A stretch of DNA of 64,000 bases. Origin: Bacteroides sp. CAG:443. GTDB taxonomy: Bacteria > Bacteroidota > Bacteroidia > Bacteroidales > Bacteroidaceae. This document shows positions 34,980 to 62,714 of this stretch, piece by piece (the first letter of the stretch is position 1; each line of letters begins with the position of its first letter). Location: the NCBI GenBank assembly GCA_000432735.1, contig FR887775.1, forward strand, positions 21,074 to 85,073, given 5' to 3'. The notes beneath the pieces are model-generated. The model saw nothing but the letters and a program-made list of their open reading frames with translations, was not told the DNA's origin and searched no databases. The translations under genes were made by a program, and so were the position numbers.

Positions 34980-34984
34980 CAAAA

Positions 34985-39272: not shown

Positions 39273-39426
39273 TATGTTGTAACTTATAGATTATAAGTAA
39301 ACCTATCTTAGCTTTACAGTCACTATATATGTAATGAAGCTTTAATTTCCAATCACCTCTCGTTTCATAGATTTATAATAAACAAGTTACGCCATGCAAC
39401 CAGTCATGTAGGTATAAAGCAAAAAA

Positions 39427-40155: not shown

Positions 40156-40250
40156 CAGTTTCAGCTTATCGGTCTAAAGAAAAAACATTTGCCGTCCAGC
40201 TCGGCGAGGAGAACGACAAATGTTTATTGATCTATTAATAATCACAAAAA

Positions 40251-46209: not shown

Positions 46210-46700
46210 AACGCACAATAAGATAAAAATTAGACTTAATATCATAAAAGGCGGGCGCAGAAAGATAAGTTTACTCGATTCTATGCCGAGCCACATCCTA
46301 TTTTATTCAAAGATAACAAAATGCTCTGTCATAACAAATAATATACCGAGAAAAATCTCGTAAATCCTTGCTATAAGATTAACAATTTATATATATGTTA
46401 ATGATACAATTCAATACACTCAATGTAGTCCACGTTATAGTTCTCATCGGCATGCAAAAAAAAACTACCAATACTTTTTTATCATTCATGTTGCTTTGTC
46501 CTTTCTTTGCATTGTCTTGTGCACACAATGTCAATGGCAGAAAACTCATTAGCATTGCGCACAGTGTTATCAGTTTTGCTTTCATACAATTTAAGCTAAA
46601 GATGGAACAGATGAGCAAACAAAATGCTGCTCACGCTTGGCAATCCACCAGCGGCTGTCCAATTTGACATATTTATCATGATAGCACATGGCATACAAGA

Positions 46701-49218: not shown

Positions 49219-50196
49219 TCAAGCAGAGAATTGCCTTCTGATCAATTTCAAGCACCCCCAAAAAGGAGAAACCAAGTTTCCCCACAGATTATTTGCCAAG
49301 TATAATCCTTTCCCTGGTAGCCCGAATTGTCGTTTTTCCAAAGGCAATTCATCAGAAGTATGCAGGGTTCCAAACATGAAATCCCATAATGCCAGTCTGG
49401 ATCCATAATTACTATGACAAAATTTACCTTTCTTATCATGATGCATTTGATGCTGATAAGGACTCATAAAAACATGTTCAAGAAGTTTAGGGTATCGCAA
49501 CGGCACATGAGAATGACGCAGATTGGCACCCGCCACAAAAAATACAAAACTAAAGGCATTAACCCCTAAAATAGTAGCCCTCACCAATACTGTATTATTA
49601 CAATAGTAGAAAACGCCAGTTACCAGGACAAAAGCCAAAAATCCCTGAAGATTCTGCAAAATCATTTCTACCGGATGCATACGATAAAGCGTAAAAGGAT
49701 TCATCGTATCGGCCGAATGATGCACTTTATGAAACTCCCATAAATATCTATTACGATGCAACAAATAATGTGTGACGTAAATGGAAAAATCCTTAACAAG
49801 AAAGAGAACTATAGGATAAAGATACATCACAACATAAGCCGACAGATGTATGGATGGAGTTCCCAGCCACGATGTCATTTTCATGCTGAGTAAGTAAGCA
49901 AGCATATTTCCGCTTACTAAAAAAGGAATGACAAAAATAGCTTTACAGACTCCACATATCAAAAACAGACTATAATCCGTTTTTGCGGAACGACTCCACC
50001 AATATTCTTTCTTAAAAATTTCTCTTATACTATTTCTGAATGAGAATTTAAGAACATACATATACCATATACAAGCCAGTATCCCCGAAATAAGCAAATA
50101 TACCCACGCAATTCTTCTGCCCGGATCAAATAAATAGGAAACAGGTCCGACAATTCCTTCTCGAAAAAGATATTCTATACTTTCTACCATATTCAA
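49219..50196 (-). CDS. Fatty-acid hydroxylase / sterol desaturase-superfamily integral membrane di-iron enzyme.
   Basis: Multiple TM helices. His boxes HYLLHRNRYLWEFHKVHHS and HQMHHD. It is the last gene of the 62459-49219 operon. Confidence 0.75.
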   Translation of the reverse strand: MNMVESIEYLFREGIVGPVSYLFDPGRRIAWVYLLISGILACIWYMYVLKFSFRNSIREIFKKEYWWSRSAKTDYSLFLICGVCKAIFVIPFLVSGNMLAYLLSMKMTSWLGTPSIHLSAYVVMYLYPIVLFLVKDFSIYVTHYLLHRNRYLWEFHKVHHSADTMNPFTLYRMHPVEMILQNLQGFLAFVLVTGVFYYCNNTVLVRATILGVNAFSFVFFVAGANLRHSHVPLRYPKLLEHVFMSPYQHQMHHDKKGKFCHSNYGSRLALWDFMFGTLHTSDELPLEKRQFGLPGKGLYLANNLWGNLVSPFWGCLKLIRRQFSA

Positions 50197-50201
50197 ACGA
50201 T

Positions 50202-52487
50202 TTACAAATGAAACATTACTGTTCCCATAAAATTAAAAGGAGCAGACGGAATGATACCTGGTCCCGGATAACCGGATGCCCTTCTTGTCATATAAATACT
50301 GTTGTTGATATTTTGGAATGATAATACCAAGTCTATATATTTATTTAATCGATAATCCAAATTCAGATCAACAACACAATATCCCGGTATGGCACCATAA
50401 ATACCATAGACTGCATCATTCGGATCCATTGGCTCATTAGCTGCATCCGTAAACTGAAAGGAAGTAAAACCGGCCTGCAAAGCCATAGAAATCCTTTTGT
50501 ATTGTGCAGTAAGTCCTCCCTTCAGATTATACAAAGGAACAAACTCCATCTTATTGCCTTCAATATTATAACCAGCTTTACTTTTTAAGTATCTGGAACC
50601 CGTAATCGCCCAGTTAGCAAAAATATTTATCTTTAAATCCGAGCAATTCAGCAGATCCGTCAAGTGCTGCAAGTCGTAATTACACATGCCTTCCACCCCG
50701 TAACTGATTCCGTTTCCAATATTATCCCTATATCTCTGATAAGTCCCCTTGACAGCCGGATTTTCTCTGAAAAATTCTCCTATCCGGTTCCCATAATATA
50801 AGAAAAACAGACTGACATCATAAGTCAGTAATGTACTGCCTCGTGAACGGATACCTACGTCCGAAGAAAATCCTGTTTCATCTTTCAAGTCTGGATTTAC
50901 CTCCAGTGCAGGAGATATGGTACGCATGTCATTGAATGTTATGGCGCGATAGTTTCGGGTAACATTTGCATACACCTCCGACTGAGTTGCTTTATACGAC
51001 AGTGCCATTCCAGCTAAGCATATCCGTCTGGAATTAGTCTTATTGTCTATCAGTATGTCTTCCGTCATAGGATAACCTTCCGTCGCATAATCAATACCGT
51101 AATAGCTTCTTTTCCCTCTGATACCTGTCTGGATGTATTCCATTCGTACACCAGGGACGATACTCCACTTTTCATTCAACCTCAAATTGACTTCAGAGAA
51201 AAGGGCAAAATTCAGATTAGGAAGTCTGTACGATGAACGATACGGAATCTTATTCTGCCGGAAATGACTTCCCGACAAAACAGGCTCCACCAACGTAAAG
51301 TCCGCATCAGTACCTGTTGTACCTGCTCCCTGATGACTCAGATTATTGGCTTGAAAATATTTAAACCCAACAGCCCATGAAGAAGGAACAGATGTCGTTC
51401 CCAAATTAAATCTTTTCAAAAATCCGATCTCTGCACTCCAGTTTCTGAAGGTTCCTTTTTGTAAATCTCTTTCTGTATTTCCCGGATCCGGAGTACCAAC
51501 CCGTTTGTCCCGATAGCCTAAAGCAAAACGATCGGCATACAATCCCGTCATTTTTACATCCAGATCAGCACGCAGTTCAGGCATATTTCGGTGATAGGAC
51601 AAAGAAATGATATTCCAGTCTATCAAAAACCAGTTTCGGCTTCTATTACTTTGTTTCGGATTCTCAAGAAACATCACATCTGTCAATCCCCCCGGCTGAT
51701 GTTCCAGATAATGATATTTCAACCAATCGATTCCCCAAAGATCATTTTCTCCTGACTGATATCTTAACTGTGCCAGCACGTTATAACTTTTATAATCGGA
51801 ATTTTCCCGATATCCATCTCCTCGTTTTAGAAGTGCAGACAGATAATAAGAGAATTTACCGATTGTTCCCGATATTCTGGAATAACTTCCCAAAAAGCCA
51901 TAGCTCCCAGCTGAAAAATGTTGCCGGATATCTATTTTTTTATCGGCTGGAGGAGTAGCTAACTTAAAATTAATCATTCCTCCGAACTGTGAACCATACT
52001 GCAAGGCAGAAGCCCCTCTCAGTACTTGTATCTCTTTTATATCATCGGCATTGGGGGTATAATAACTCTCCGGATAACCTAAGGGATCAGCGCTGATATC
52101 ATAACCGTTCTGCCGAATGTTAAAGTTAGCCGAACGATTCGGATTCAATCCTCGGGAGCCGATATTCAACTGTAAGCCTCCGTCGCTCCCTTCGTGAATC
52201 ACGATACCCGATACATTCCGAAACATCTGTCGGGTATTATTTGCTGCCTTGTTCAACAACATATTTTCCAAGAGAGAAACCGTACTCTTTTTCCCTGCAA
52301 AAATCATAGTACCTTCCACATCACGCATGAAACGAGGTTTAGCTGCCGTATTTTCCTTATTACTGTAAATATATACTTCATCCAGCACTATTTCCTTATT
52401 TTCCATACAACTGTCTGGGAGCAATTGCGCATAGACACCTGCCGGCAAAAATGTAAACAGACATATACTAAGATAAGTTTTCATCAC
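50202..52487 (-). CDS. TonB-dependent outer-membrane receptor (classical siderophore/haem-type, 761 aa).
   Basis: Signal peptide. Plug domain carrying IQVLRGASALQYGSQFGGMINFK. Large C-terminal beta-barrel. Confidence 0.8.
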   Translation of the reverse strand: MMKTYLSICLFTFLPAGVYAQLLPDSCMENKEIVLDEVYIYSNKENTAAKPRFMRDVEGTMIFAGKKSTVSLLENMLLNKAANNTRQMFRNVSGIVIHEGSDGGLQLNIGSRGLNPNRSANFNIRQNGYDISADPLGYPESYYTPNADDIKEIQVLRGASALQYGSQFGGMINFKLATPPADKKIDIRQHFSAGSYGFLGSYSRISGTIGKFSYYLSALLKRGDGYRENSDYKSYNVLAQLRYQSGENDLWGIDWLKYHYLEHQPGGLTDVMFLENPKQSNRSRNWFLIDWNIISLSYHRNMPELRADLDVKMTGLYADRFALGYRDKRVGTPDPGNTERDLQKGTFRNWSAEIGFLKRFNLGTTSVPSSWAVGFKYFQANNLSHQGAGTTGTDADFTLVEPVLSGSHFRQNKIPYRSSYRLPNLNFALFSEVNLRLNEKWSIVPGVRMEYIQTGIRGKRSYYGIDYATEGYPMTEDILIDNKTNSRRICLAGMALSYKATQSEVYANVTRNYRAITFNDMRTISPALEVNPDLKDETGFSSDVGIRSRGSTLLTYDVSLFFLYYGNRIGEFFRENPAVKGTYQRYRDNIGNGISYGVEGMCNYDLQHLTDLLNCSDLKINIFANWAITGSRYLKSKAGYNIEGNKMEFVPLYNLKGGLTAQYKRISMALQAGFTSFQFTDAANEPMDPNDAVYGIYGAIPGYCVVDLNLDYRLNKYIDLVLSFQNINNSIYMTRRASGYPGPGIIPSAPFNFMGTVMFHL

Positions 52488-53660
52488 TTAATCTCCCTCC
52501 TCTCCGTCGGTATACGTAACCGTCAGATTTAATTCAACAATAAGCTTGGCTTTTAACAAACCTACCACTTTCTGCAACTCTCCATAAATTTCTTTCAAAC
52601 GCTCCATTCCGTCAGGAGTATTTACCAATACGGCTATATCATCATGATTCAGATTTCCAGTTTCGCCTTCAAGCACATCCAAGGTTTTCCCAAACAGATT
52701 GATTAGTCCGTTGTCCCCTTTTCCTGAAACAGCCAACTGTTCCTCCATAAAACGTCTAAAACTATTTGCCGGCAATGGCATCGATTCATTATAAGGCACA
52801 CCATTATAAAAGTTCTTCAACGCCAAGATACTTCTGTGAAGAAGCTGAGTAGACAAACCTTTTCCGCAATAATAACCTTCTACCGCTTGAGGAGCCGGTT
52901 TTTTCTGTACGATAGCTGCTCCATATATACCAATCGGAATACCTACTTTTAGGGTACGTATATATACCTCATATTGCTTCATCAGTGTATTAATCAATAC
53001 ACAAAGACTTCCTCGTGCCGAAAAGTCATTGTTGGAAACAAAAGCATTTTCATTTTCAACATAATAGCTTTCAGCTGCTTTCGCATAATGATTGATGACT
53101 TCACACACCGTGCATATATATTGAATACAAGCAGCATCCATTGGTATCTCTCCGCTATACAGCATATAATCCAATGCTGCAAACCCTGTGGCATTAGGCT
53201 GATTTAATCCTTCTTCCAGTTCTTGAATGATCTCACTGGAGGAAAATCGGCTGTTTTCAATAGCCGATTTAACCAACGTCTTATTTACTTGTGATGTCCC
53301 AGCCAGTTCATATACCCCGCTTACGCCACTATGGAAAATTGCATGATCAAAAATAATGACATCCTGAAGGCTTAGGAACGCTTCCTTGTATAACTCTTTC
53401 AGATGCCCTATAGCAGCCTCCCGTTCCGCACCCTCTTCTGTATCTTTCAGAGCATAGGCAGCCTGAAGCATTTCTTTTGTTTTCAGTTGATAGTTTGAGA
53501 ACGCCGGAATAATCTGTCTTTTATACCAGAAAGACAAGTAAGTAGCATCAATGGTCCTCTTTTCCGAAACACCTTTTATCGGAGTATATACACATCCCGC
53601 CAGTATCAGCAACGCCCCGACAGAAATACATAATATCTGCTTATAAAATCTGTTATTCAT
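52488..53660 (-). CDS. Lipoprotein, possibly imelysin-like (iron-regulated protein A-like helical periplasmic protein).
   Basis: Lipoprotein signal (LILAGCVYTP). About 390 aa. The call rests on its position between a DUF4856-like gene and a TonB-dependent receptor. No HxxE motif is seen, so the family call is weak. Confidence 0.35.
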   Translation of the reverse strand: MNNRFYKQILCISVGALLILAGCVYTPIKGVSEKRTIDATYLSFWYKRQIIPAFSNYQLKTKEMLQAAYALKDTEEGAEREAAIGHLKELYKEAFLSLQDVIIFDHAIFHSGVSGVYELAGTSQVNKTLVKSAIENSRFSSSEIIQELEEGLNQPNATGFAALDYMLYSGEIPMDAACIQYICTVCEVINHYAKAAESYYVENENAFVSNNDFSARGSLCVLINTLMKQYEVYIRTLKVGIPIGIYGAAIVQKKPAPQAVEGYYCGKGLSTQLLHRSILALKNFYNGVPYNESMPLPANSFRRFMEEQLAVSGKGDNGLINLFGKTLDVLEGETGNLNHDDIAVLVNTPDGMERLKEIYGELQKVVGLLKAKLIVELNLTVTYTDGEEGD

Positions 53661-54793
53661 AAATTATAATATGCCTTAAGTTTCTTGTTTACATCAATAA
53701 TAGATCCAGTCTGATTCCCTTCTATTCGTTCTTTGTCCCAAATACCTTTTTCTCCATAAGTCAATTCGTCATATAATTCTTTTGCCTGATCCATAGTCAT
53801 GAAATACTCTCCCTTTTCATTCTTTACGAAAGGCAAAGCGAGTATGAATCCCAATGCCTCACCCATATTATGGAAATACTGTTCATTCAACTCCTTTCCA
53901 CTTTTCTGACGTAAGATTTTGGAACTTTCATTCAAATAATACATCGTACGGAGTACCAACATTTTGGAAAGCAATTTCCGAATTTCCGCTACCTGCTTTT
54001 TCATTTCTTCAGGATGACTGTCTACGACGGCCTTTCTCCCAGCCCGAAATGCATGATAGACTGCTACATTTATATTCTCCAAACCTTTCATACCCACCGA
54101 CTCTTTTTCAATATAATTGGCAAGAAACAATGGAGAAATACGGTCCGGATCTGCATTTATACTACCAATATATCCCCAAGCAATATCCCAGTAATATTCC
54201 ATTTCCGTACAGTTTTTACCCTTCACAACAGTCTGATTGTCGGCCGTAAGAGATTTCATCAGGAAATAATCGATATTCGACACTTGCAAAGCCCCTATCA
54301 TCATTTTCTGGATCACCTGCCCTAGCTCTACTCCCTTTTCGTTGACTAAACGCTGTTCATCATTGCTTACTTGAACAATACCTATTTTACCTTCACGAGC
54401 AAAGGTACCTGCAAAAGCACTTTTGGAAGCCTCTGTTATTTCATCAAGAAAATTTTCCAAGATATTCCGAACCTTTTCCTGCTCCTTAAAACCAACAGCA
54501 ATATGGGAAGCCAGTTCATTCCGATAATCCCTCCTCTTTCCTTCAAGATTTGTCAGGACCTTGGCATTAATTCCATTGTTGAAATTTCTAAAATCAAGAA
54601 GGACCTTTTTGGACTCCCCTATATCTACACTGGATATACCATTTCTGAAAAACCTGTAGTCGGTACTATAAGTATCAGAAGAAATTATCCCATCAGAAGC
54701 CTTGTCCTCTCTTTTTATTTCCTGTTTACTACAACTTGAGCCACCCAAAAGTACACAAGCAGCCCACGCCAATCCGATAAATTTTCCTTTCAT
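53657..54793 (-). CDS. Lipoprotein, possibly DUF4856-like.
   Basis: Lipoprotein signal (LLGGSSCSKQ). 378 aa. EMEYYWDIAWGYIG segment. It overlaps the next gene by 4 bp. Confidence 0.4.
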   Translation of the reverse strand: MKGKFIGLAWAACVLLGGSSCSKQEIKREDKASDGIISSDTYSTDYRFFRNGISSVDIGESKKVLLDFRNFNNGINAKVLTNLEGKRRDYRNELASHIAVGFKEQEKVRNILENFLDEITEASKSAFAGTFAREGKIGIVQVSNDEQRLVNEKGVELGQVIQKMMIGALQVSNIDYFLMKSLTADNQTVVKGKNCTEMEYYWDIAWGYIGSINADPDRISPLFLANYIEKESVGMKGLENINVAVYHAFRAGRKAVVDSHPEEMKKQVAEIRKLLSKMLVLRTMYYLNESSKILRQKSGKELNEQYFHNMGEALGFILALPFVKNEKGEYFMTMDQAKELYDELTYGEKGIWDKERIEGNQTGSIIDVNKKLKAYYNL

Positions 54794-54833
54794 TGTTAGT
54801 CTATTTTAGTTTTTGTATGATTTATATTTCTCC

Positions 54834-55508
54834 TTATGGAAGATACATCGCTTGAGAATATACATTATAATTTTTTCCTATTTCAGAAATATGAAACGAC
54901 TCCAAGGTTCTGCTGTAACGATGACTTAAGTCAGGAAGACTTTCCATGCCGTCCTGCGTTTCGGTACTCATGGTCACACTCATGTCGAAATGGGCATAAG
55001 GACTATAAAATACAGCAAAATAAACGGGATCGCCAGATTGTTTTGTAATTGACACAGGCTCTACATCCGAGAAATAAGGCTTAAAACGATTCCTTTTATC
55101 TCTTTCTATGACATTATGACCATCCATTATCGTATCAATTTTCAGTTCATTATTCTCATCTAAATATTGTAAAATTACCACCGAAAGATTCTGTTTATCA
55201 AAGCTTCCATAATAATTGGCCATTACGTCTATAGATAGCGAAACCTGATATTTTTCACGATAGCCTCCCAAGGGTATTTCTTCACTACGATTGAATCCAA
55301 GCTCCCCCACCTCTTTAGGAAAACAATTAAAAGGAACTCCGGGCTCATGAGGTACCTGTTCCGCTGGTTTAAGTTCTATGAATTTTGAGAAATCTTCTGT
55401 CAGACTTTCCGTATTTTCTCTGGAACAAGAAGCCGAAAGTACAGACATATATACAGCATAAGCTATCATATAAAACACATGTCTATTCATAATATCTATT
55501 TTTGACAA
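54834..55508 (-). CDS. Small lipoprotein (HmuY-sized, 200-224 aa) of unknown function.
   Basis: Signal and lipobox (SVLSASCSRE), probably from the internal Met MNRHVFYM.... It directly abuts the upstream gene. Confidence 0.45.
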   Translation of the reverse strand: MSKIDIMNRHVFYMIAYAVYMSVLSASCSRENTESLTEDFSKFIELKPAEQVPHEPGVPFNCFPKEVGELGFNRSEEIPLGGYREKYQVSLSIDVMANYYGSFDKQNLSVVILQYLDENNELKIDTIMDGHNVIERDKRNRFKPYFSDVEPVSITKQSGDPVYFAVFYSPYAHFDMSVTMSTETQDGMESLPDLSHRYSRTLESFHISEIGKNYNVYSQAMYLP

Positions 55509-56639
55509 TTAGTGATTTTTTTCAACAAAAGTGATGTAGGCGGTATATATCCCGCTCGTACTCTTCCACTCCTTCTTATCCGTTGAGCGGACAAACTCTG
55601 TAAAGATTACATCTTCATTAAACTTAAATCCCGGACGAAATTCAATGCCAGATTCTGTAGCAATATATCCGGACCCCAATCCGGTATAATAAGTACTTCC
55701 ATCATATCCATGAACAGTCCGGTTAGGTTGTTCGTTCTTCAAGAATAATTCATATTGCATCCGGTCATATCGAGCTACTTTCCGATGCGATTGCAAGTCT
55801 TTGGAAAATGAAGAAGACAATCTGTATTGCATCATCTGCTGCCCGAAATCGAAAGTTGTTTCATACGCTACCTGTTGCGTTGCAGTTAATACAATTCTTA
55901 AAATGCAGTTTCTGTCTTCCTTCAGATTCTGCCTCAAATCCTTGAAAGAACGTGTTCTGAACACTTCTTTTTCATTGATTATTTTTTTCATCCGATCTTT
56001 CCAATGTTCTTCCGGTATATCCAATGGAGTCAGTTCTATGAATTCTTTGTCCGTTTCATTGTAGTTCATTGTCGTCAGTACGATACGCTGGGGTGAAACA
56101 ACGACTGGCAAAAACTTATTAGTTGCATTTACCTGATAAGGATACAATTCTTCCAGCATCGTATTCGTACGGAAAAACAACGTTAAGCCATCAGAAATAG
56201 TAATACCATACTGAGCCTGACTAATCTCCGTCTGATACACCGGAGTATAATGACTTTTTACATCCGTAGGTGCATAAGCGATATCTGTTAGGACATCCAT
56301 CTCTCCTCCTTCCTTGAATTTCAGAAAGAGATTATAACCACCAACCCCCATTCGACGTTGCAGATATACATCTGTAAGAGAATAAACTTCAGTCTTATAA
56401 TTTTCAGTGATATCCGTATTCAAGCGAGTATTGATACTAGGGAAATAGGTCATCTTCCATCCATTGGGTGCACCACAAAGAACAGTCTTCAGTTCATCAA
56501 TAGCCTTATTTTCTCTGCTTGTTACCGAGAGTCCATCCCAATCGGCTTCTTTTCTACACGCCGTAAACAAAACCAGTGACACAACTGTCAGTATAAATTT
56601 ATATTTTATCATTATCAAAAATAAGTTAAGGTTCAACAA
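55509..56639 (-). CDS. Lipoprotein of unknown function (SusD-downstream accessory, DUF4302/DUF4843-class by position).
   Basis: Lipobox (VVSLVLFTACRKE) from an internal Met. About 365 aa. It overlaps the upstream gene by 14 bp. Confidence 0.45.
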   Translation of the reverse strand: MLNLNLFLIMIKYKFILTVVSLVLFTACRKEADWDGLSVTSRENKAIDELKTVLCGAPNGWKMTYFPSINTRLNTDITENYKTEVYSLTDVYLQRRMGVGGYNLFLKFKEGGEMDVLTDIAYAPTDVKSHYTPVYQTEISQAQYGITISDGLTLFFRTNTMLEELYPYQVNATNKFLPVVVSPQRIVLTTMNYNETDKEFIELTPLDIPEEHWKDRMKKIINEKEVFRTRSFKDLRQNLKEDRNCILRIVLTATQQVAYETTFDFGQQMMQYRLSSSFSKDLQSHRKVARYDRMQYELFLKNEQPNRTVHGYDGSTYYTGLGSGYIATESGIEFRPGFKFNEDVIFTEFVRSTDKKEWKSTSGIYTAYITFVEKNH

Positions 56640-57555
56640 GATTATCCGAAGTACCCTTCATGCATTTCTCTGGATACTGCAATATCATGCGAGGTAATAC
56701 ACGCGACAAATCCGACAAACGCTTTATTCCGAAATTCTCCAACAAATATTTATCAATGAAAGCTACCTTCTTCTGAAGAACCAGCTTATAGGGAGGAGGC
56801 GTTTCATATTCGTCAATCTTCATAAGCCCATTTACATTCTTGGGCAACTGGCAGAGCAACAAGCTCATCGTTTCCGCGAAATCTACAACAGGTCCCGATT
56901 GTGCAGCCTTCGTAAAATACCCGAAAGATGCCATCAAGTCGGAGCGATCCGAATATTCTCCCTGCAATTCATTTTCCGTCCACTTGTTGTATTTCACGAT
57001 ATTATATTCGGAAAACTCCCGAAGATCAACTGGCCGCAATTCCAGCATATTTTTGGTAAAACAAAAGGTCGCTTCCCGCATCAAACGATATACAGCTTCC
57101 GAGCGAGAACAGTCAAAAACATTTACATTGTACAAAGGCATAATTTGCGTTCCCAATCCAGGCGTATCCATATCCTCCACCAGTCTGTCATCGAAGTTTG
57201 GAGCACCATAAAGGCGTATTTCTTTCGGATGATAACGCCGGACAAAATCCCTTCCGAAAAGTTTTTCCAAGTAGTCTATCCACAGTTCTTTATATGCTTT
57301 CATTACAGGCTTTACACGAGATAGCTCTACGGAGCGATTATTCAAAGCTATCGGATCCTTAAAAGGCATTTGCCTGTATACAACCTTGATATTATAAGGT
57401 ATTTCAAACTCAGCAGCAAGCCATTTATCCAGTTCGGATACTTGTGCTTCGGGATACCCATCATTATCCCGAATATCATTGAGTTCTTTCTTGCATCCAC
57501 CTAACATCATTAAGCTTGAAAGCAAGATAAAAGTATAGTATATGAATCTAGTCAT
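56626..57555 (-). CDS. Lipoprotein of unknown function (SusD-downstream accessory).
   Basis: MTRFIYYTFILLSSLMMLGGCKKE lipobox. 309 aa. It overlaps SusD-like by 8 bp. No HExxH motif is present. Confidence 0.45.
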   Translation of the reverse strand: MTRFIYYTFILLSSLMMLGGCKKELNDIRDNDGYPEAQVSELDKWLAAEFEIPYNIKVVYRQMPFKDPIALNNRSVELSRVKPVMKAYKELWIDYLEKLFGRDFVRRYHPKEIRLYGAPNFDDRLVEDMDTPGLGTQIMPLYNVNVFDCSRSEAVYRLMREATFCFTKNMLELRPVDLREFSEYNIVKYNKWTENELQGEYSDRSDLMASFGYFTKAAQSGPVVDFAETMSLLLCQLPKNVNGLMKIDEYETPPPYKLVLQKKVAFIDKYLLENFGIKRLSDLSRVLPRMILQYPEKCMKGTSDNLVEP

Positions 57556-59065
57556 TGTAATTTATTTTTTCAATATAATTAATAGCCTCACTAGGAAACG
57601 GCAAATACTTTCTAGAATCTTCAGGCTTTAAAACCCAATTCACATTGCGGACATCTCCCGTCTGATTCCGATCCACACTCATATTAAAACGTCGCAAATC
57701 AAACCATCTCAATCCTTCGTGCATGAACTGCTGCCTGCTCATTTCCGATATCACAAACAGCAATGAAGCCTGACTGGCCGACAGAGGCCGATAATACGGC
57801 TGTATCCTATCCCGATCGGATGTCGGGATGAAATCCAATTCTTCCCTTTCCGGAGCTTCTCCCACACCCTTCGCCGTCACATGTTTTGCCAGGAAAAACG
57901 TTACGATATCATTCAGTGCCAGCTCTTTGTTCTCAAGCATGGCATAGGCTTCTGCCCGGTGCAGCAGCACTTCCTCTGTTGTAAACAATACATTCATACA
58001 GAAATGCCCTCTCTTGCTGTTCAATAAACCTTCCGCATTGTTGAAATGAAAAAATTTAGGGAAATACACACTGTTTGAACCTGTATGTTTCGCCATTTTA
58101 TTATATCCGGCAATCTGATACAATGTTTTCGCCCCACTTCTTCCGACAACCCTCTGAAAAGTCGGCTCATCCAGTCCAAATCTGCCATCTACATAGTACT
58201 TATACCATAAAGACTCAGTAACTGTAAGCAATAAATTACTTGGATTCTGCTCCGAAGCATAATAAGCAGTTCTTTCATCTGTCTGCAAATCACTGATATC
58301 CAAAAATGCAGTTATTGCCTTTTCCGGCTGCTGACCAAGTACATAGGCACTATAATCTATCACCTCCTGCCATTGTCCCGTATAACTGAAAAATCTTACA
58401 GCAAAGGCATAAGCAGCTTTCTTGTTGAAATGATATTTTACCTGATCGTAAAAATCATCTCTTACCCAGGCAAGTCCCAATCTCAGATCACGTTCTATTT
58501 TACGATACGTATCCGCCAGATTATCCATCTTGTATTTTACCAACGCGTTCTTTTCTGGAGATTCTACATACACAATTCCAGGAAGATTTTTCGAATCCTC
58601 CTCTCCCTGATAAGGCGGTGCCCAGATATTGGCAATCATAAAATGCAAATACGCTCTGACCAGCAAAGCTTCAGCATATAAAGCCTGAATCTGAGGATCA
58701 TGCTTGTCGGAGAATCCTGCCAATGCCTCCAATGCCTGATTAGCTTGCGCAATTCCTCTATAGCACTCCATCCAGTAGGCTTTCGGCGAATCCGGTTCCT
58801 CTTCATCGTAATCTTTCCAATAAAACATTGACTCATCCAGTCTGGACGCTTCCAGAGAATTTCTTTTATCACCCACATTGTCCGTCCTCATCTCCAAAAA
58901 ACGGAAATAACTACTCTTCGGATAAGCACCAGTCAACAACTCCTTTATCTTCTCCTTCGAATCAATACGCACATCCGCATTAGAATCGGGAAACTTATCT
59001 AAAAACTGACAAGAACTCAGTGATATAAGAATCGGAAGTAAATAAATTTTTAAGGATAATTTCAT
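57548..59065 (-). CDS. SusD/RagB-family outer-membrane lipoprotein.
   Basis: Lipobox (LISLSSCQF). TPR-like length of 505 aa. The C-terminal SusD signature is HEGLRWFDLRRF. It lies directly downstream of SusC-like. Confidence 0.8.
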   Translation of the reverse strand: MKLSLKIYLLPILISLSSCQFLDKFPDSNADVRIDSKEKIKELLTGAYPKSSYFRFLEMRTDNVGDKRNSLEASRLDESMFYWKDYDEEEPDSPKAYWMECYRGIAQANQALEALAGFSDKHDPQIQALYAEALLVRAYLHFMIANIWAPPYQGEEDSKNLPGIVYVESPEKNALVKYKMDNLADTYRKIERDLRLGLAWVRDDFYDQVKYHFNKKAAYAFAVRFFSYTGQWQEVIDYSAYVLGQQPEKAITAFLDISDLQTDERTAYYASEQNPSNLLLTVTESLWYKYYVDGRFGLDEPTFQRVVGRSGAKTLYQIAGYNKMAKHTGSNSVYFPKFFHFNNAEGLLNSKRGHFCMNVLFTTEEVLLHRAEAYAMLENKELALNDIVTFFLAKHVTAKGVGEAPEREELDFIPTSDRDRIQPYYRPLSASQASLLFVISEMSRQQFMHEGLRWFDLRRFNMSVDRNQTGDVRNVNWVLKPEDSRKYLPFPSEAINYIEKINYND

Positions 59066-59075
59066 AATACATAAT

Positions 59076-62000
59076 TTAAAAAGTCGTATTGATAGATAAG
59101 CTGTAGGTACGCTGTATCGGAGCTGCTACTCCTCCGGAACTCACAAATTCAGGATCCCTTCCGTTCAGTTTCTTGTCCGAATAAATCAAGAAAGGATTTT
59201 GCAGCTGCAAATTGACAGAAGCAGATTTTAGTTTCAAGCGTTCACAAGCCTTAGTCGGAATCCGATAAGTCAGAGAAATACTTTTCATACGGATAAAACT
59301 ACCATCTACCACATTGACATTCGAGAAATTATATGCATTGTAAGCCCGCTCGATATTCTGACGCCCTATCAATGTTATCAAGTCAGTACCCGGAATTACC
59401 GGAACATCCGTACGTGATTCATCCCCTTTCGACAGCCATCTTTTACGATAACGGGTAGTAAACACATTCAAATCTCCATATTCAGCGTCGAAGGTAGGAG
59501 CCAGTCGCAATTTATTACCAATTTGACCAGACAGGAAGACTGAAAGTTCCCAATTCTTGAACTGAAACACATTCGACAATCCCGTGGTAATATACGGATC
59601 GACAGGTCCGTTATACACCAGATAAGACTGATTGTACCGGGTATCATAAAAATTAGCCCCCGAAACCCGGGACAAAGCATTATCCTCCAACGGTAAGTTT
59701 CCCCAGTTAAATGTAGGCAGTCCCCGTTCATTCAACCCGGCAAATTCGAACGAGTACAAAGCCCCTCTCGGGAAACCTTCCAGATTTCCCCTTCCGGTTC
59801 CTGCCACAAGATCGAATGTAGACGGCGTATTGATGAGCCTCGTTATCCGCTGGTTATAGTAAGAAAAATTAAAGATTGTAGTCCACTGAAACGTCTTAGT
59901 CTGAACATTCATGGTTTGCAGACTCAGGTCAAATCCGGTTGTTTTCATATCCCCGAAATTAGCCCACTTCTGATATTCTCCACCAATCCCCGGAGTACGA
60001 ATCAAGTCAATCAGGTCGAAAGAATTGCGACGATATACATCCAGACTTCCAGAAATACGGTCATTCCACAAGCCCACGTCCAGTCCCACATTAAACTCAT
60101 ACATCTTTTCCCATGTCAAATCCCTGTTTTCCAGATGCCGTAAATAGATAGCATATTCTCTGCTATGTACATCGGGACGGAAAGTTACCTTGCTGTCAAA
60201 TACACTGACAGAGTTGATAGCATGCGGATTCATTTTCGCCACCAATCCATAACTCATCCTCACAGCCAGCTTATTCCATACATTCTTTGCCGGTTGGAAA
60301 AAATTTTCCTCACTGATATTCCATCGTCCTCCCACATTCCAAGTAGGCAACCATCTCACCCGGTCACTCGTTCCCGAAAGATTGGAGCCCTCATAATTGC
60401 CAACCACATTCGCCACATAGCGGTTCTTATAGCTATAAGTCAACGAACCAGAAAAGACAATTCCCCTGTCGTACGTATGCTGCACACCAAAGTAGTCATC
60501 CCCCTCGGCTATCGTCTTTTTGAATATATCCGGACTGGTCGCAATACCATTTGCTTTATCAAATGTAATTCCGTAACCCTTGAAACGATCCATATCGCTA
60601 TCTGACATTTTTACCTCAGCAAATGAAAAGATCTTCAGCCGATGCTCTCCCAAACTATAACTATAATCCCCCGAAATACGAGCTATATAACTTTGCAGCG
60701 AACGAGTAGTCTTATCAAATATTCCACCCATCGGAATAGCCACCTGTGCCGCCGACGACTGACCATCCCGATACAAATAAATATTATCCCTACGGAACAC
60801 CTCATTTCCATTGGCACGATAAGCACCTATTACATTCGACCGCTCACCGATGCTATGCATCATGTGTGTCACCGCATGCCTTACATTCAGCAGAGCCGAT
60901 AAATGCAGATCGTTTACCGGAGTCCAGTTCCCTTGTAAAAACAAACGGAACTCATTCATTTTTATTCTCATCTTATTTTGCTGATATTCCTCCATGATAT
61001 TGAAAGGTGCCCAGTCATTACGATAATACTCATATCGACCACTATCATCATACGGCCTCAATGTACGGGAAGTGTTCAGCGCATAAGAAAAAGGATTAAT
61101 ATCGAAGTCACGTTTATAAGCTCCCGCTTCCAGATTTTTGATTCTCGGGAAAGTTCCCGGCGCATACTGATCTCTGAAATTAGCCTGAATACCGATAACA
61201 GTTTTCACCTTGTCCGAAAGGAATAGAGTGTTTTTCAAATTAACGGTCACTCTTTTAGTCCGGTCGGCAACTGTTTCTCCCGGATCATTATAAAAACTCA
61301 GAGAAGCGTATGTAGTACTTTTCTCTCCTCCATAAGACAATGAAAAAGAATGATTCTGCATCAGCGCATCCTTATAAATCAAATCGAACCAGTCAGTATT
61401 ATACCCTGCGGCTTGTCTTAAAAAAATATCTTTTGCTGCATCCGTATTTGCCAGTTCAACCCCATTTCCATTATAATTCGTAATACGCTCAAACATCTGT
61501 GTATACACTCCTCCTCTACGTGCATACAAAGCATCATTCATCGTAAAATATCCTTTGTTGGCCATTTCCCGATAGACCTTCATCGTTTCCCGGGAATCCA
61601 TCATATCGAATTGTCCATAATCAGGTTTAAATCTTTTCGACAACGTCAAATTATACGAAAGATTCAAACCTTTTCCTCTTTCTCCCGATTTAGTCGTTAC
61701 AATAATGACACCATTCATTCCTCTGGCTCCATACAGCGAAGTAGCCGACGCATCCTTCAGAACTTCAATGCTTTCAATATCAGCCGGATTCAATCCTGCT
61801 ATATTGGAACTGATTAACGTAATGGCATCACCCGACAGTAATTGTTCACTGTCGAGCGGTGCAAAATCTTCCAATATTGCTCCATCTACCACCCATAAGG
61901 GCTGCACATTACCATTGATAGAACCTCCTCCCCGAATATTCATTTTAGGCGCCACACCAAAAGTACTCGAAACAGAAGAGATATTCAGTCCCGGAGCCCT

Positions 62001-62459
62001 GCCTTCCAACAAACGAGAAAAATCTGCCTGTGGAGAAAAAGCAAAATCTTTCGTAGAAATCTTGGCAGCAGCTCCGACGAATATTCGACTATTGACTTGA
62101 TTATATCCTGTAACGACCACTTCTTCCAGCGAGTTATCGGAAGATTCCAACTCTACTTTTATAAATCGGTCCTCCCCAACCAATATGCTTTTCTGCTTCA
62201 TCCCGACATAATCGAAAAGCAATGTCTGCCCTTTATGGACCTGCATGGAAAACTTTCCGTCAAGATCGGAAACCGTACCTTTGGAAGTACGTAACTCTCG
62301 CACAGTCGCCCCCACTAAAGGTTCCCCATGAACATCCGTAATAATACCTTGTAGCAGCCAGCCAGAAGTCTGTTCTGGCTTGTTCTGTGCCCCAACCTCA
62401 TCTGTACCTATGAATAATAATACAAAGAGTACTTGTAAAATGGTTTTCATATCTCTCAT
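59076..62459 (-). CDS. SusC/RagA-family TonB-dependent outer-membrane transporter.
   Basis: 1127 aa. The N-terminal carboxypeptidase-regulatory-like domain is GIITDVHGEPLVGATVRELRTSKGTVSDLDGKFSM. The plug carries ATSLYGARGMNGVIIVTTK. The C-terminus ...SINTTF. It has no STN (anti-sigma signalling) domain. Confidence 0.85.
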   Translation of the reverse strand: MRDMKTILQVLFVLLFIGTDEVGAQNKPEQTSGWLLQGIITDVHGEPLVGATVRELRTSKGTVSDLDGKFSMQVHKGQTLLFDYVGMKQKSILVGEDRFIKVELESSDNSLEEVVVTGYNQVNSRIFVGAAAKISTKDFAFSPQADFSRLLEGRAPGLNISSVSSTFGVAPKMNIRGGGSINGNVQPLWVVDGAILEDFAPLDSEQLLSGDAITLISSNIAGLNPADIESIEVLKDASATSLYGARGMNGVIIVTTKSGERGKGLNLSYNLTLSKRFKPDYGQFDMMDSRETMKVYREMANKGYFTMNDALYARRGGVYTQMFERITNYNGNGVELANTDAAKDIFLRQAAGYNTDWFDLIYKDALMQNHSFSLSYGGEKSTTYASLSFYNDPGETVADRTKRVTVNLKNTLFLSDKVKTVIGIQANFRDQYAPGTFPRIKNLEAGAYKRDFDINPFSYALNTSRTLRPYDDSGRYEYYRNDWAPFNIMEEYQQNKMRIKMNEFRLFLQGNWTPVNDLHLSALLNVRHAVTHMMHSIGERSNVIGAYRANGNEVFRRDNIYLYRDGQSSAAQVAIPMGGIFDKTTRSLQSYIARISGDYSYSLGEHRLKIFSFAEVKMSDSDMDRFKGYGITFDKANGIATSPDIFKKTIAEGDDYFGVQHTYDRGIVFSGSLTYSYKNRYVANVVGNYEGSNLSGTSDRVRWLPTWNVGGRWNISEENFFQPAKNVWNKLAVRMSYGLVAKMNPHAINSVSVFDSKVTFRPDVHSREYAIYLRHLENRDLTWEKMYEFNVGLDVGLWNDRISGSLDVYRRNSFDLIDLIRTPGIGGEYQKWANFGDMKTTGFDLSLQTMNVQTKTFQWTTIFNFSYYNQRITRLINTPSTFDLVAGTGRGNLEGFPRGALYSFEFAGLNERGLPTFNWGNLPLEDNALSRVSGANFYDTRYNQSYLVYNGPVDPYITTGLSNVFQFKNWELSVFLSGQIGNKLRLAPTFDAEYGDLNVFTTRYRKRWLSKGDESRTDVPVIPGTDLITLIGRQNIERAYNAYNFSNVNVVDGSFIRMKSISLTYRIPTKACERLKLKSASVNLQLQNPFLIYSDKKLNGRDPEFVSSGGVAAPIQRTYSLSINTTF

Positions 62460-62714
62460 TTGCTAATTTTTTTTGCAAAAATATTCAGTATATACGGTAT
62501 ATGTCAATACCAACAAATAGGTATTTTTAATATTTATGCAAATAAAATACAACATTTTCTCTATCTTACAATAAGGGAAAATGTACTTTGTCGTTGTTTA
62601 TCAAGGAAATGCCTAGTATTAGTTTTCATAATAAATATTTACTATCACTATAAAGTGTTTATACGATTGTCTTTTATAGGCAGCGCTCTGTTGAGATGAA
62701 GGCATAAAAGAAAA

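What the first reader, a model, noticed from the sequence alone, without database searches (positions are those of the whole stretch)
49219..62459. Nine-gene operon fusing a SusC/SusD importer, three orphan lipoproteins, an iron/haem-style DUF4856-imelysin-TonB-receptor module and a membrane fatty-acid hydroxylase/sterol desaturase
Nine minus-strand ORFs run from 62459 to 49219 with gaps of 0-40 bp or overlaps of 4-14 bp, so they are almost certainly one transcript. The order is as follows. (1) SusC-like transporter. (2) SusD-like lipoprotein. (3-5) Three lipoproteins of 309, 376 and 224 aa with no catalytic motif I can recognise. (6) DUF4856-like lipoprotein. (7) Imelysin-like lipoprotein. 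(8) A second, classical 761-aa TonB-dependent receptor. (9) An integral-membrane His-box di-iron enzyme of the fatty-acid hydroxylase / sterol desaturase superfamily. There is no glycoside hydrolase, no polysaccharide lyase, and no HTCS, SusR or ECF-sigma/anti-sigma regulator. The SusC-like protein also lacks an STN signalling domain. Canonical polysaccharide-utilisation loci (PULs) pair SusC/D with CAZymes. DUF4856/imelysin/TonB-receptor triads are typical of iron or haem acquisition loci. The terminal lipid-oxidising membrane enzyme fits neither class. Together these suggest an outer-membrane import system for a non-glycan substrate, such as a lipid, sterol, sphingoid or metallo-cofactor, that is then oxidatively modified in the inner membrane. 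I do not know of a described Bacteroidales system with this composition.
Basis: partly seen in the sequence, partly recalled or inferred. Interest (0 to 1): 0.75.

Follow-up and report, generated by a model that had tools for sequence, protein, structure and literature searches.

The report
Sus-like iron-capture operon, gut Phocaeicola
The nine genes are a real operon-like block, but it is not an unknown lipid importer: it is a gut-Bacteroidales version of an outer-membrane iron-capture system already described in Capnocytophaga and Riemerella, and its one new feature is a membrane di-iron oxygenase in the place where relatives carry a vitamin-K-carboxylase-like protein.

Summary
Nine minus-strand ORFs run from 62459 to 49219 with gaps of 0-40 bp or short overlaps.

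Two of the three "orphan" lipoproteins belong to known families: Peptidase_Mx1/TIGR04549, here without its HExxH motif, and DUF4302. The third belongs to a rare family.

The first six genes (SusC, SusD, Mx1, DUF4302, small lipoprotein, DUF4856) match a Riemerella columbina block gene for gene. The SusC proteins are 52% identical. Published work equates the R. anatipestifer counterpart with icsC-icsH of the Capnocytophaga canimorsus iron capture system. That work also shows the R. anatipestifer cluster, together with the adjacent imelysin, HTTM and TonB-receptor genes, is induced by low iron and regulated by Fur.

Elsewhere in Bacteroidota the module is DUF4856-imelysin-HTTM-TonB receptor (48 loci). 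The His-box enzyme occurs only where HTTM is absent (10 loci). In metagenomes, 27 of 30 well-flanked members of its subfamily lie next to imelysin genes.

The block is therefore most likely an iron-acquisition operon. The His-box enzyme is a dedicated module component, not a lipid-pathway passenger.

Novelty: a new variant of a known kind. Iron regulation in this organism and the enzyme's chemistry remain untested.

The parts
62506..62527 (-). Conserved upstream element AAAATACCTATTTGTTGGTATT, containing the inverted repeat AATACC-N8-GGTATT. It is a candidate operator or promoter element.
   Evidence: The sequence was read. The core is conserved in the upstream alignment of six orthologous loci whose proteins are only 30-80% identical. 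Its function is not determined. It matches neither the Riemerella nor the E. coli Fur-box consensus.
62476..62483 (-). TATTTTTG, which matches the Bacteroides -7 promoter consensus TAnnTTTG. It lies 17 nt upstream of the SusC ATG.
   Evidence: It is invariant as TAT(T/A)TTTG-CA in all six aligned upstream regions. The consensus itself comes from general knowledge of Bacteroides promoters (Bayley et al. 2000) and was not tested here.
59076..62459 (-). SusC/RagA-type TonB-dependent transporter, IcsC-type, 1127 aa, with no STN domain
   Evidence: TIGR04056 scores 610 bits; CarbopepD_reg_2 and Plug domains are present. It is 52% identical over 1040 aa to the first gene of the Riemerella columbina block.
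57548..59065 (-). SusD-like lipoprotein, IcsD-type, 505 aa
   Evidence: SusD-like_3, E 3.9e-37. It holds the same position in all orthologous loci.
56626..57555 (-). Peptidase_Mx1/TIGR04549-family lipoprotein that has lost the HExxH zinc site. It is an IcsE-type pseudo-metallohydrolase of 309 aa.
   Evidence: Pfam 131 bits and TIGR04549 95 bits, cut-off 75. PDB entries 9urd_A and 4l7a_A have HHEFAH where this protein has ATFCFT. All members of this locus type lack HExxH, whereas Mx1 proteins from a BACON-type PUL keep HHEFTH.
55509..56639 (-). DUF4302 lipoprotein, position of IcsF. It is 376 aa from the TTG start and 367 aa in independent gene calls.
   Evidence: PF14135 scores 79.7 bits. It holds the same position in the Riemerella block.
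54834..55508 (-). Small lipoprotein of a rare family, position of IcsG (224 or 218 aa). The predicted fold is a beta-sandwich.
   Evidence: No Pfam or NCBIfam hit. Only 15 representatives were found among 1.84 billion proteins. It is related to the 202-aa fifth gene of the R. columbina block: hhalign probability 95%, E 3.8e-8, with bridging sequences. The AF2 model has pLDDT 67 and eight strands, with no significant PDB match.
53657..54793 (-). DUF4856 lipoprotein, position of IcsH. It is also the first gene of the widespread DUF4856-imelysin-(HTTM)-TonB receptor module.
   Evidence: PF16148 scores 168 bits. Its closest relative outside the clade is the sixth gene of the R. columbina block, at 136 bits against 112 or less for the other module copies.
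52488..53660 (-). Imelysin-like lipoprotein of the module-specific subtype. It carries a GF(A/P)ALDY motif instead of GxHxxE.
   Evidence: Peptidase_M75 scores 26.9 bits, cut-off 23.5. A profile built from the module finds it in every locus.
50202..52487 (-). Classical TonB-dependent receptor of the module type, 761 aa. It lacks the N-terminal roughly 85-aa domain that relatives carry.
   Evidence: Plug and TonB_dep_Rec_b-barrel domains. It is 44% identical over 734 aa to the module receptor of Flavobacterium psychrophilum. All named siderophore and haem receptor models score far below their cut-offs.
49219..50196 (-). Integral-membrane His-box di-iron enzyme of the FA_hydroxylase superfamily. 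It occupies the role that HTTM has in other loci.

Best explanation
**What it is.** The block is an iron-acquisition operon of the 'iron capture system' (ICS) type. It sits in an uncultured Phocaeicola-like gut bacterium.

**Proposed mechanism, in order.**
1. A promoter upstream of SusC drives all nine genes. In relatives the equivalent cluster is repressed by Fur and induced by iron starvation.
2. At the cell surface, the SusC barrel with its SusD lid works with four lipoproteins: a catalytically dead Mx1 protein, DUF4302, a small beta-sandwich protein and DUF4856. Together they bind an iron source and pass iron, or an iron chelate, through the outer membrane. In Capnocytophaga the source is serum transferrin. 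In the gut it may be lactoferrin, transferrin or another iron carrier.
3. The second, classical TonB receptor and the imelysin-like lipoprotein form the widespread Bacteroidota DUF4856-imelysin-receptor module. This module handles the iron species in or across the outer membrane and periplasm.
4. The inner-membrane His-box di-iron enzyme performs the redox step that an HTTM (vitamin-K-dependent-carboxylase-like) protein performs in most other versions of the module.

**Shown here.**
- Gene content, orthology and synteny.
- Loss of HExxH in the Mx1 protein.
- Mutual exclusion of FA_hydroxylase and HTTM.
- Linkage of the FA_hydroxylase subfamily to imelysin genes.

**Taken from papers.**
- Iron and Fur regulation in Riemerella.
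- The transferrin-iron function in Capnocytophaga.

**Inferred.**
- Iron regulation and the iron substrate in this organism.
- Surface exposure of the lipoproteins.
- The chemistry of the His-box enzyme. Most likely it is an O2-dependent oxidation involving a membrane quinone or lipid, or a modification of a partner protein.
For: **Orthology to the Riemerella block.** The R. columbina locus L075 has SusC, SusD, Mx1, DUF4302, a 202-aa lipoprotein and DUF4856 in the same order.
- The SusC proteins are 52% identical over 1040 aa.
- The DUF4856 proteins are 30% identical, E 7e-44.
- The small lipoprotein is related to the 202-aa protein at hhalign probability 95%, with bridging sequences.
- L075 carries a Riemerella-type Fur box 33 bp before the SusC ATG. 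This is the same distance reported for RAYM_09824.

**Published function and regulation.**
- PMC5429918 equates R. anatipestifer B739_0103-0098 with icsC-icsH of the C. canimorsus ICS. It reports B739_0093-0103 all induced by iron depletion.
[quoted passage not shown] Fur bound the 09824 promoter in EMSA.

**Conservation of the module.** DUF4856-imelysin-HTTM-TonB receptor occurs in 48 of 64 genome loci across Bacteroidota. The window receptor is 44% identical to the F. psychrophilum module receptor.

**The His-box enzyme belongs to the module.**
- It is present in 10 loci, none of which has HTTM. No HTTM locus has it.
- Of 30 metagenome loci of its subfamily with at least 3 kb on both sides, 27 carry an imelysin gene within 7 kb. 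Fifteen carry the full triad, and none carries HTTM.
- Further variants are imelysin-DHOR-imelysin-FA_hydroxylase, one of them beside FeoB.
- All His boxes are invariant.

**The Mx1 protein is not a peptidase here.** HExxH is lost in every member of this locus type.
Against: - Iron regulation was not shown for this organism. No Riemerella-type or E. coli-type Fur box is detectable upstream; the best matches are no better than shuffled sequence.
The link to icsC-H therefore rests on another paper's statement and on the Riemerella sequence, not on a direct comparison.
- An icsA homologue was not identified. The R. anatipestifer paper maps icsA to a receptor elsewhere (B739_1068), not to the cluster's own receptor.
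- The imelysin-like protein lacks the canonical GxHxxE motif.
- Transferrin as the direct iron source was, by my recollection of the original abstract, not formally demonstrated even in Capnocytophaga.
- FA_hydroxylase enzymes need O2, which is scarce for a gut anaerobe.
- Nothing here shows what the enzyme acts on.
Confidence: 0.7

Rival explanations
1. The operon imports a non-glycan hydrophobic substrate (lipid, sterol or sphingoid) through SusC/D. The terminal His-box enzyme then hydroxylates or desaturates that substrate in the inner membrane.
For: - The last gene is a bona fide FA_hydroxylase-superfamily protein with intact His boxes.
- Its nearest solved fold is the ceramide fatty-acid hydroxylase Scs7p.
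- The block contains no CAZymes.
Against: - The enzyme's subfamily is linked to imelysin iron modules in marine and other Bacteroidota that have no SusC/D nearby: 27 of 30 loci.
- It is interchangeable with HTTM.
- It also follows imelysin-DHOR-imelysin clusters, one of them beside FeoB.
- The orthologous Riemerella cluster responds to iron and Fur.
- No lipid-binding or lipid-metabolic gene is present in the block.
Confidence: 0.08
2. Two independent systems lie side by side. One is a protein- or peptide-utilisation Sus-like locus (SusC/D plus an Mx1 metallopeptidase, DUF4302 and a small lipoprotein). The other is a separate DUF4856-imelysin-receptor iron locus with its own promoter.
For: - Mx1/TIGR04549 and DUF4302 also occur in other SusC/D loci that lack the iron module, for example L076 with BACON domains and FecR.
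- The DUF4856 module exists on its own in most Bacteroidota.
- The largest gap in the block, 40 bp, lies exactly between the two halves.
Against: - The Mx1 protein has lost its catalytic HExxH motif, so a peptidase role is unlikely.
- In R. columbina, DUF4856 stays with the Sus-like block even though imelysin and the receptor are absent.
- The window DUF4856 is closest to that copy.
- The two halves stay joined across proteins diverged to 30-50% identity and across changing flanks.
- In R. anatipestifer all genes of both halves are co-induced by iron depletion.
- A 40-bp gap leaves little room for a promoter.
Confidence: 0.12
3. The His-box enzyme is a membrane-lipid remodelling enzyme, such as an OlsE-like ornithine-lipid or sphingolipid hydroxylase. 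On this view it is merely co-regulated with iron uptake as a stress adaptation and takes no part in iron handling.
For: - The best NCBIfam hit is OlsE.
- Its superfamily acts on lipids.
- Membrane remodelling under iron limitation has been reported in a marine Bacteroidetes (title of PMC9478572).
Against: - The OlsE score is 58.6 bits against a cut-off of 475.
- Strict mutual exclusion with HTTM inside the same module suggests an equivalent module role rather than a general stress gene.
- Physical adjacency across many gene orders and phylogenetically distant lineages suggests the same.
Confidence: 0.1

Closest known systems
Iron capture system (ICS, PUL3) of Capnocytophaga canimorsus (Manfredi et al. 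2015, Infect Immun 83:300) and its Riemerella anatipestifer counterpart B739_0093-0103 / RAYM_09774-09824
   Same: - It is a Sus-like machine without CAZymes.
- SusC, SusD and a TIGR04549 'zinc metallohydrolase' lipoprotein are followed by further lipoproteins.
- In R. anatipestifer the block is followed by imelysin, an inner-membrane protein and a FecA-like TonB receptor.
- In R. columbina the first six genes have the same families and order, and SusC is 52% identical.
   Different: - The inner-membrane partner here is an FA_hydroxylase His-box enzyme placed after the receptor. In R. anatipestifer it is an HTTM protein placed before it.
- The extra T9SS-type 'carbohydrate-binding' gene seen in Riemerella is absent.
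- No icsA homologue was identified.
- The host is a gut commensal rather than a pathogen.
- No recognisable Fur box was found.
- A direct comparison with the C. canimorsus sequences could not be made.
DUF4856-imelysin-HTTM-TonB receptor module of Bacteroidota (e.g. Flavobacterium psychrophilum L044)
   Same: - DUF4856 and an imelysin of the GF(P/A)ALDY subtype are present.
- The receptor is orthologous, 44% identical.
- The genes lie in the same order and on the same strand.
   Different: - HTTM is absent and replaced by FA_hydroxylase.
- The module is fused downstream of a SusC/D block.
- The receptor lacks its N-terminal domain.
Imelysin-type iron systems of Proteobacteria (EfeUOB; P. aeruginosa PA4370-PA4373), as discussed in Xu et al. 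2011, PMC3143127
   Same: - An imelysin-fold protein is encoded in an iron-regulated cluster.
- FA_hydroxylase relatives also follow imelysin-DHOR-imelysin clusters of this kind in metagenomes.
   Different: - The window has no EfeU permease and no EfeB or di-haem peroxidase.
- The imelysin lacks the GxHxxE motif.
- An outer-membrane TonB receptor and SusC/D are present.
Canonical polysaccharide utilisation loci (Sus of Bacteroides thetaiotaomicron)
   Same: A SusC/SusD pair followed by surface lipoproteins in one operon.
   Different: It has no glycoside hydrolase or lyase, no SusR/HTCS/ECF-anti-sigma regulator, and no STN domain on SusC.
Giant-virus vitamin-K redox modules (bioRxiv 10.64898/2026.03.26.714578)
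   Same: A VKGC/HTTM-like epoxidase and an FA_hydroxylase-type 'sterol desaturase' are functionally associated. They are adjacent or fused. This shows the two membrane-enzyme families can belong to one pathway.
   Different: There the two co-occur, whereas here they are mutually exclusive alternatives. The viral context is lipid modification, not iron uptake.

Membership tests
ICS-type Sus-like iron capture locus (C. canimorsus PUL3 / Riemerella cluster) | SusC-like and SusD-like genes head the locus | tested here: met
   TIGR04056 at 610 bits and SusD-like_3. SusC is 52% identical to that of the R. columbina block.
ICS-type Sus-like iron capture locus (C. canimorsus PUL3 / Riemerella cluster) | A TIGR04549/Mx1 lipoprotein (IcsE position) is followed by three further lipoproteins (IcsF-H positions) | tested here: met
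   Mx1, DUF4302, the small lipoprotein and DUF4856 lie in the same order as in R. columbina L075. The R. anatipestifer gene-to-ics mapping is taken from PMC5429918.
ICS-type Sus-like iron capture locus (C. canimorsus PUL3 / Riemerella cluster) | Direct sequence homology to the C. canimorsus IcsA and IcsC-IcsH proteins | not testable with these tools
IcsA is reported to map to a receptor outside the Riemerella cluster.
ICS-type Sus-like iron capture locus (C. canimorsus PUL3 / Riemerella cluster) | Induced by iron limitation and controlled by Fur | tested here: inconclusive
   No Fur-box match better than chance lies upstream of the window SusC. A conserved upstream element of unknown function exists. 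Expression cannot be tested here.
ICS-type Sus-like iron capture locus (C. canimorsus PUL3 / Riemerella cluster) | Required for growth on host iron (serum or transferrin) | not testable with these tools
   Needs genetics and growth assays.
DUF4856-imelysin-HTTM-TonB receptor module | DUF4856, a module-type imelysin and a module-type TonB receptor in one strand-wise array | tested here: met
DUF4856-imelysin-HTTM-TonB receptor module | An HTTM/VKGC-like inner-membrane protein lies between imelysin and the receptor | tested here: not met
   No HTTM is present in the window clade. FA_hydroxylase is present instead.
Canonical glycan PUL | CAZymes and a dedicated sensor/regulator (SusR, HTCS or ECF/anti-sigma with an STN domain on SusC) | tested here: not met
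   Pfam and NCBIfam scans of all nine proteins and of the upstream ORF found none.
Peptidase_Mx1 / TIGR04549 zinc metallohydrolase | Family-level sequence match | tested here: met
   131 bits (Pfam) and 95 bits (TIGR04549, cut-off 75).
Peptidase_Mx1 / TIGR04549 zinc metallohydrolase | HExxH zinc-binding catalytic motif | tested here: not met
   The motif is aligned to HHEFAH of 9urd_A and 4l7a_A, and the window has ATFCFT. It is absent in all members of the clade and in R. columbina.
FA_hydroxylase (membrane di-iron His-box) superfamily | HxxxH, HxxHH and HxxHH histidine boxes in a polytopic membrane protein | tested here: met
   H143, H147, H156, H159, H160, H174, H228, H249, H252 and H253 are invariant in 61 sequences. 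The all-helical model has pLDDT 94.
FA_hydroxylase (membrane di-iron His-box) superfamily | Membership of a characterised subfamily (OlsE, sterol desaturase, sphingolipid hydroxylase) | tested here: not met
Imelysin (Peptidase_M75) superfamily | Conserved GxHxxE functional-site motif | tested here: not met
   The window has GFAALDY, and the whole module subfamily has GF(P/A)ALDY. The Pfam match is just above threshold, 26.9 against 23.5.
EfeUOB-type ferrous iron transporter | EfeU/Ftr1 permease and EfeB peroxidase encoded with the imelysin-domain protein | tested here: not met
   Neither family occurs among the nine proteins.

The most novel reading that the evidence does not exclude
A dedicated subfamily of membrane His-box di-iron oxygenases may be an unrecognised, integral component of imelysin-based iron-uptake modules. 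On this reading it is functionally interchangeable with the HTTM (vitamin-K-dependent-carboxylase-like) protein. That would imply that Bacteroidota iron uptake includes an inner-membrane, O2- and probably quinone-dependent oxidation step. Candidates are modification of a partner lipoprotein, of a quinone, or of the iron ligand. Two unrelated enzyme families would then have been recruited to perform that step.
Probability: 0.35. Interest if true: 0.7.

Novelty: new variant of a known kind. Interest (0 to 1): 0.45.

Why it matters
Iron acquisition by gut Bacteroidales is known mainly through haem uptake and xenosiderophore piracy. This locus shows that the Sus-like iron capture system, described as a virulence trait of Capnocytophaga and Riemerella, also exists as a complete conserved operon in commensal Phocaeicola. 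The His-box protein's cluster has 244 member sequences, so it is seen often in metagenomes.

The comparative data also give a handle on two long-unassigned bacterial protein families. HTTM and this FA_hydroxylase subfamily occupy the same slot in an iron module. This generates a concrete, testable hypothesis about a redox step in imelysin-type iron uptake, whose mechanism is still unknown.

The work also corrects a likely annotation trap. The 'zinc metallohydrolase' of this locus type has no zinc site.

Tried and rejected
- **Riemerella Fur-box scan.** I scanned the window and orthologous upstream regions with the consensus ATTTAGAATTATTCTAAAT. It hits R. columbina only, with 3 mismatches 33 bp from the ATG. 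The window's best match has 6 mismatches.
- **E. coli Fur-box scan.** The result was no better than shuffled sequence.
- **Sigma-70 promoter and terminator scan.** It found no more sites than in shuffled sequence and is uninformative for Bacteroides promoters.
- **Profile-profile comparison of DUF4856 and imelysin.** This tested whether DUF4856 is a cryptic imelysin. Probability was 49% over 50 columns, so the idea was rejected.
- **Foldseek of the small lipoprotein model against PDB.** Only generic C2/DUF4425-like beta-sandwiches appeared, with E about 0.01 and TM below 0.3. This is not informative, and the model has only moderate confidence.
- **PDB sequence searches.** DUF4856, DUF4302 and the His-box profile all returned nothing.
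- **Word-indexed profile search for the small lipoprotein.** It found only 4 clusters. The exhaustive search found 15.
- **The original ICS paper.** I tried to read it, but it is not held. Other Capnocytophaga papers give no gene-level description.
- **The B. thetaiotaomicron iron-stimulon paper.** It mentions DUF4302 only for an unrelated, down-regulated gene.
- **Literature on the His-box/imelysin link.** Searches combining imelysin with sterol desaturase or fatty acid hydroxylase found no paper describing the linkage.
- **A housekeeping gene stranded at the operon end.** I considered this for the His-box enzyme and rejected it on the linkage statistics.

Full report
**1. Observation**

The junctions are a 10-bp gap, an 8-bp overlap, a 14-bp overlap, 0 bp, a 40-bp gap, a 4-bp overlap, 0 bp and a 5-bp gap. 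Gene calls on identical metagenome contigs choose later starts for four genes, but every gap still stays at or below 40 bp. GC skew is uniformly negative through the block. A consensus scan found no excess of terminator-like sites. A 440-bp non-coding stretch precedes SusC. The next gene downstream is convergent and is an M49 peptidase.

**2. What the proteins are** (Pfam and NCBIfam)

| Gene | Assignment |
|---|---|
| 1 | SusC/RagA, TIGR04056 at 610 bits; CarbopepD_reg_2 and Plug; no STN |
| 2 | SusD-like_3 |
| 3 | Peptidase_Mx1 / TIGR04549, 'substrate import-associated zinc metallohydrolase lipoprotein' |
| 4 | DUF4302 |
| 5 | no family |
| 6 | DUF4856 |
| 7 | weak imelysin match, 26.9 bits |
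| 8 | Plug plus beta-barrel TonB receptor; all named siderophore and haem receptor models score far below cut-off |
| 9 | FA_hydroxylase; OlsE is the best named model but scores 58.6 bits against a cut-off of 475 |

The Mx1 protein has lost its active site. Where the solved relatives 9urd_A and 4l7a_A have HHEFAH, the window has ATFCFT. Every member of this locus type lacks HExxH, including the Riemerella copy. Mx1 proteins from a different, BACON-containing PUL keep HHEFTH.

Gene 5 belongs to a very small family. A profile finds only 15 representatives among 1.84 billion proteins. Its model is a moderate-confidence eight-strand beta-sandwich with no significant PDB match.

**3. Conservation of the whole block**

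The His-box protein has a 99% identical cluster with 244 member sequences. One metagenome contig, OJKY01000020.1, is 100% identical and is probably the source of the window. Contigs carrying homologues that are 53% and 47% identical have all nine genes in the same order but entirely different flanks.

I scanned one genome per species with a DUF4856 profile. The full nine-gene order appeared in 7 genomes: Phocaeicola faecicola (the closest, 80% identical), P. fibrisolvens, two Bacteroides mediterraneensis assemblies and three uncultured Bacteroides. The block is therefore a conserved unit of one Phocaeicola/Bacteroides subclade.

**4. The link to a known system**

A profile of the Mx1 protein found very few relatives. 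The nearest named one is from Riemerella columbina. Its locus reads SusC, SusD, Mx1, DUF4302, a 202-aa lipoprotein and DUF4856.
- The SusC proteins are 52% identical over 1040 residues, which I take as orthology across two orders.
- The DUF4856 proteins match at E 7e-44.
- The 202-aa protein is related to gene 5: hhalign probability 95%, E 3.8e-8. Sequences found with the gene-5 profile match the 202-aa protein at E 1e-47 to 1e-55.

Two open papers describe the R. anatipestifer counterpart.
- PMC5429918 states that B739_0103 to B739_0098 are the homologues of icsC to icsH of the Capnocytophaga canimorsus iron capture system. Their annotations are SusC/RagA, RagB, 'substrate import-associated zinc metallohydrolase' and three hypothetical proteins. 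[quoted passage not shown] The paper also reports B739_0093-0103, including a FecA-like receptor, as induced by iron depletion.
[quoted passage not shown] It shows Fur binding to the 09824 promoter and gives a Fur box 33 bp before its ATG.

R. columbina has a matching box at the same distance from its SusC.

By locus-tag spacing and annotation, the R. anatipestifer cluster is the five-gene Sus-like block, then DUF4856, one extra gene, imelysin, HTTM and the receptor. This ordering is my inference from the two papers and the R. columbina sequence. The window operon has the same architecture, without the extra gene and with a different inner-membrane protein.

**5. The second half and the His-box enzyme**

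In 48 of the 64 genome loci, the DUF4856 and imelysin genes are followed by a 455-aa protein and then the receptor. The 455-aa protein was checked on Pfam in the F. psychrophilum locus (HTTM plus the VKGC lumenal domain). In the other loci it was identified by phmmer with that sequence. The window receptor is 44% identical to the F. psychrophilum module receptor. The module's imelysins share GF(P/A)ALDY instead of the canonical GxHxxE.

FA_hydroxylase and HTTM exclude each other:

| Locus content | Number of loci |
|---|---|
| HTTM, no FA_hydroxylase | 48 |
| FA_hydroxylase, no HTTM | 10 |
| Neither (four on contigs cut short near the module; L025 and L064 not examined further) | 6 |

The 10 FA_hydroxylase loci include Flavicella, Flavobacterium laiguense and a Fulvivirga MAG, none of which has the SusC/SusD-Mx1 block. 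The Fulvivirga copy is only 19% identical and belongs to a different FA_hydroxylase subfamily.

I then searched metagenomes from the enzyme's side.
- Of 30 loci with at least 3 kb on both sides, 27 have an imelysin gene within 7 kb.
- Fifteen have DUF4856, imelysin and the receptor.
- None has HTTM.
- Other arrangements are imelysin, di-haem oxidoreductase (DHOR), imelysin and FA_hydroxylase. This was verified on Pfam for L120 and L118, and L120 lies beside FeoB.
- One genome, Aureispira, shows no linkage.

The enzyme is therefore very probably active. It is also a dedicated partner of imelysin iron modules. It is neither a housekeeping lipid enzyme nor the end of a lipid-import pathway.

**6. 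Regulation**

No regulator is encoded in or next to the block. This fits control by a global regulator such as Fur.

I could not find a Fur box of either the Riemerella or the E. coli type. The upstream alignment of six orthologous loci shows two conserved features. One is TATTTTTG, which fits the Bacteroides -7 consensus as I know it, at 62476-62483. The other is a conserved 22-bp element with an inverted repeat at 62506-62527. What binds there is unknown.

**7. Mechanism proposed**

The mechanism is set out under Best explanation. In short, it is an iron-starvation operon.
- A surface SusCD machine with four lipoproteins captures an iron source. The Mx1 protein acts as a binding protein rather than a hydrolase.
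- The module receptor and the imelysin-like lipoprotein handle iron at the outer membrane and periplasm.
- The inner-membrane His-box enzyme performs the step done elsewhere by HTTM.

Four of the lipoproteins have K/E/D-rich sequences directly after the lipidated cysteine. The imelysin does not; it has CVYTPIKG. By the Bacteroidetes lipoprotein export signal as I recall it (Lauber et al. 2016), the first four would be surface-exposed and the imelysin periplasmic. This is an inference and was not tested.

The chemistry of the last step is open. A 2026 preprint reports VKGC-like epoxidases fused or adjacent to FA_hydroxylase-type desaturases in giant viruses. That shows the two families can work in one quinone-linked pathway, but it does not say what they do here.

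**8. Comparison and novelty**

The locus works like the Capnocytophaga/Riemerella ICS, and at the sequence level it is orthologous to the Riemerella block.

It fails the definition of a glycan PUL. It also fails the definition of the standard HTTM module, because the HTTM gene is missing.

Three points appear to be new, as far as the searchable literature shows:
- the replacement of HTTM by FA_hydroxylase, and the tight imelysin linkage of that enzyme subfamily;
- the loss of the zinc site in the ICS-type Mx1 proteins;
- the presence of the complete system in commensal gut Phocaeicola.

I rate it a new variant of a known kind, with moderate interest.

**9. Limits**

Everything about expression, substrate and enzyme chemistry is inferred. 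The equation of Riemerella genes with ics genes rests on another paper's statement. The linkage counts depend on my own HMMs, which were built from the loci themselves. They also depend on pattern-seeded scans, which favour sequences similar to the queries.

Noticed in passing
window 56626-57555 (and P0125-P0138): The TIGR04549 'zinc metallohydrolase' of this locus type has no HExxH motif: TFCFT or TFAFA in the gut clade and HHHFAK in Riemerella columbina. Mx1 proteins from a BACON-type PUL keep HHEFTH. Automatic annotation as a metallopeptidase is therefore misleading for this subfamily.
   Followed up: yes
L044 6818-9821 (Flavobacterium psychrophilum): Divergently upstream of the DUF4856-imelysin-HTTM-receptor module lie a thioredoxin-like protein, ApbE (flavin transferase) and a DUF3570 protein. 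This is a redox-maturation-type neighbourhood and may bear on the module's chemistry.
   Followed up: no
L120 3187-10042 and L118 3323-9035: These loci carry variant clusters of imelysin, di-haem oxidoreductase (DHOR), imelysin and FA_hydroxylase. One lies next to FeoB. The other is followed by a di-haem cytochrome c peroxidase. The His-box enzyme thus also joins the Pseudomonas-type imelysin cluster.
   Followed up: partly
window 50202-52487: The module TonB receptor is 761 aa. It starts aligning at residue 115 of the 829-aa F. psychrophilum orthologue. Orthologues in related nine-gene loci are 838-847 aa. This copy has therefore lost the N-terminal (CarbopepD_reg-like) domain.
   Followed up: partly
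window 62506-62527: A 22-bp element with the inverted repeat AATACC-N8-GGTATT is conserved upstream of SusC across loci whose proteins have diverged to 30-50% identity. It matches no Fur consensus tried.
   Followed up: partly
window 62898-63914: A 338-aa ORF immediately upstream on the same strand has no Pfam or NCBIfam match. It is separated from SusC by 440 bp and is not part of the conserved block.
   Followed up: no
L075 13683-15745 (Riemerella columbina): Two T9SS-cargo genes with Por_Secre_tail domains, one carrying LRR repeats, directly follow the six-gene block. An LRR protein (RAYM_09774) next to the R. anatipestifer cluster is reported as iron-induced.
   Followed up: no
window 34937-42473: This stretch carries ordinary Bacteroidales housekeeping genes: a bifunctional fucokinase/fucose-1-phosphate guanylyltransferase-like protein (968 aa), an MFS transporter, and pyruvate formate-lyase with its radical-SAM activase.
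   Followed up: no
window 44887-46296: A 469-aa ORF matches the recently defined DUF7477 (94 bits). Its function is unknown.
   Followed up: no
window 53657-54793 (alignment A1): Invariant residues of DUF4856 include an adjacent Tyr-Tyr pair (Y285, Y286), H308 and E312, along with E199 and D203. This residue set recalls ferric-binding sites such as the Tyr-Tyr-His-Glu of FbpA. Whether they cluster in three dimensions was not checked.
   Followed up: no
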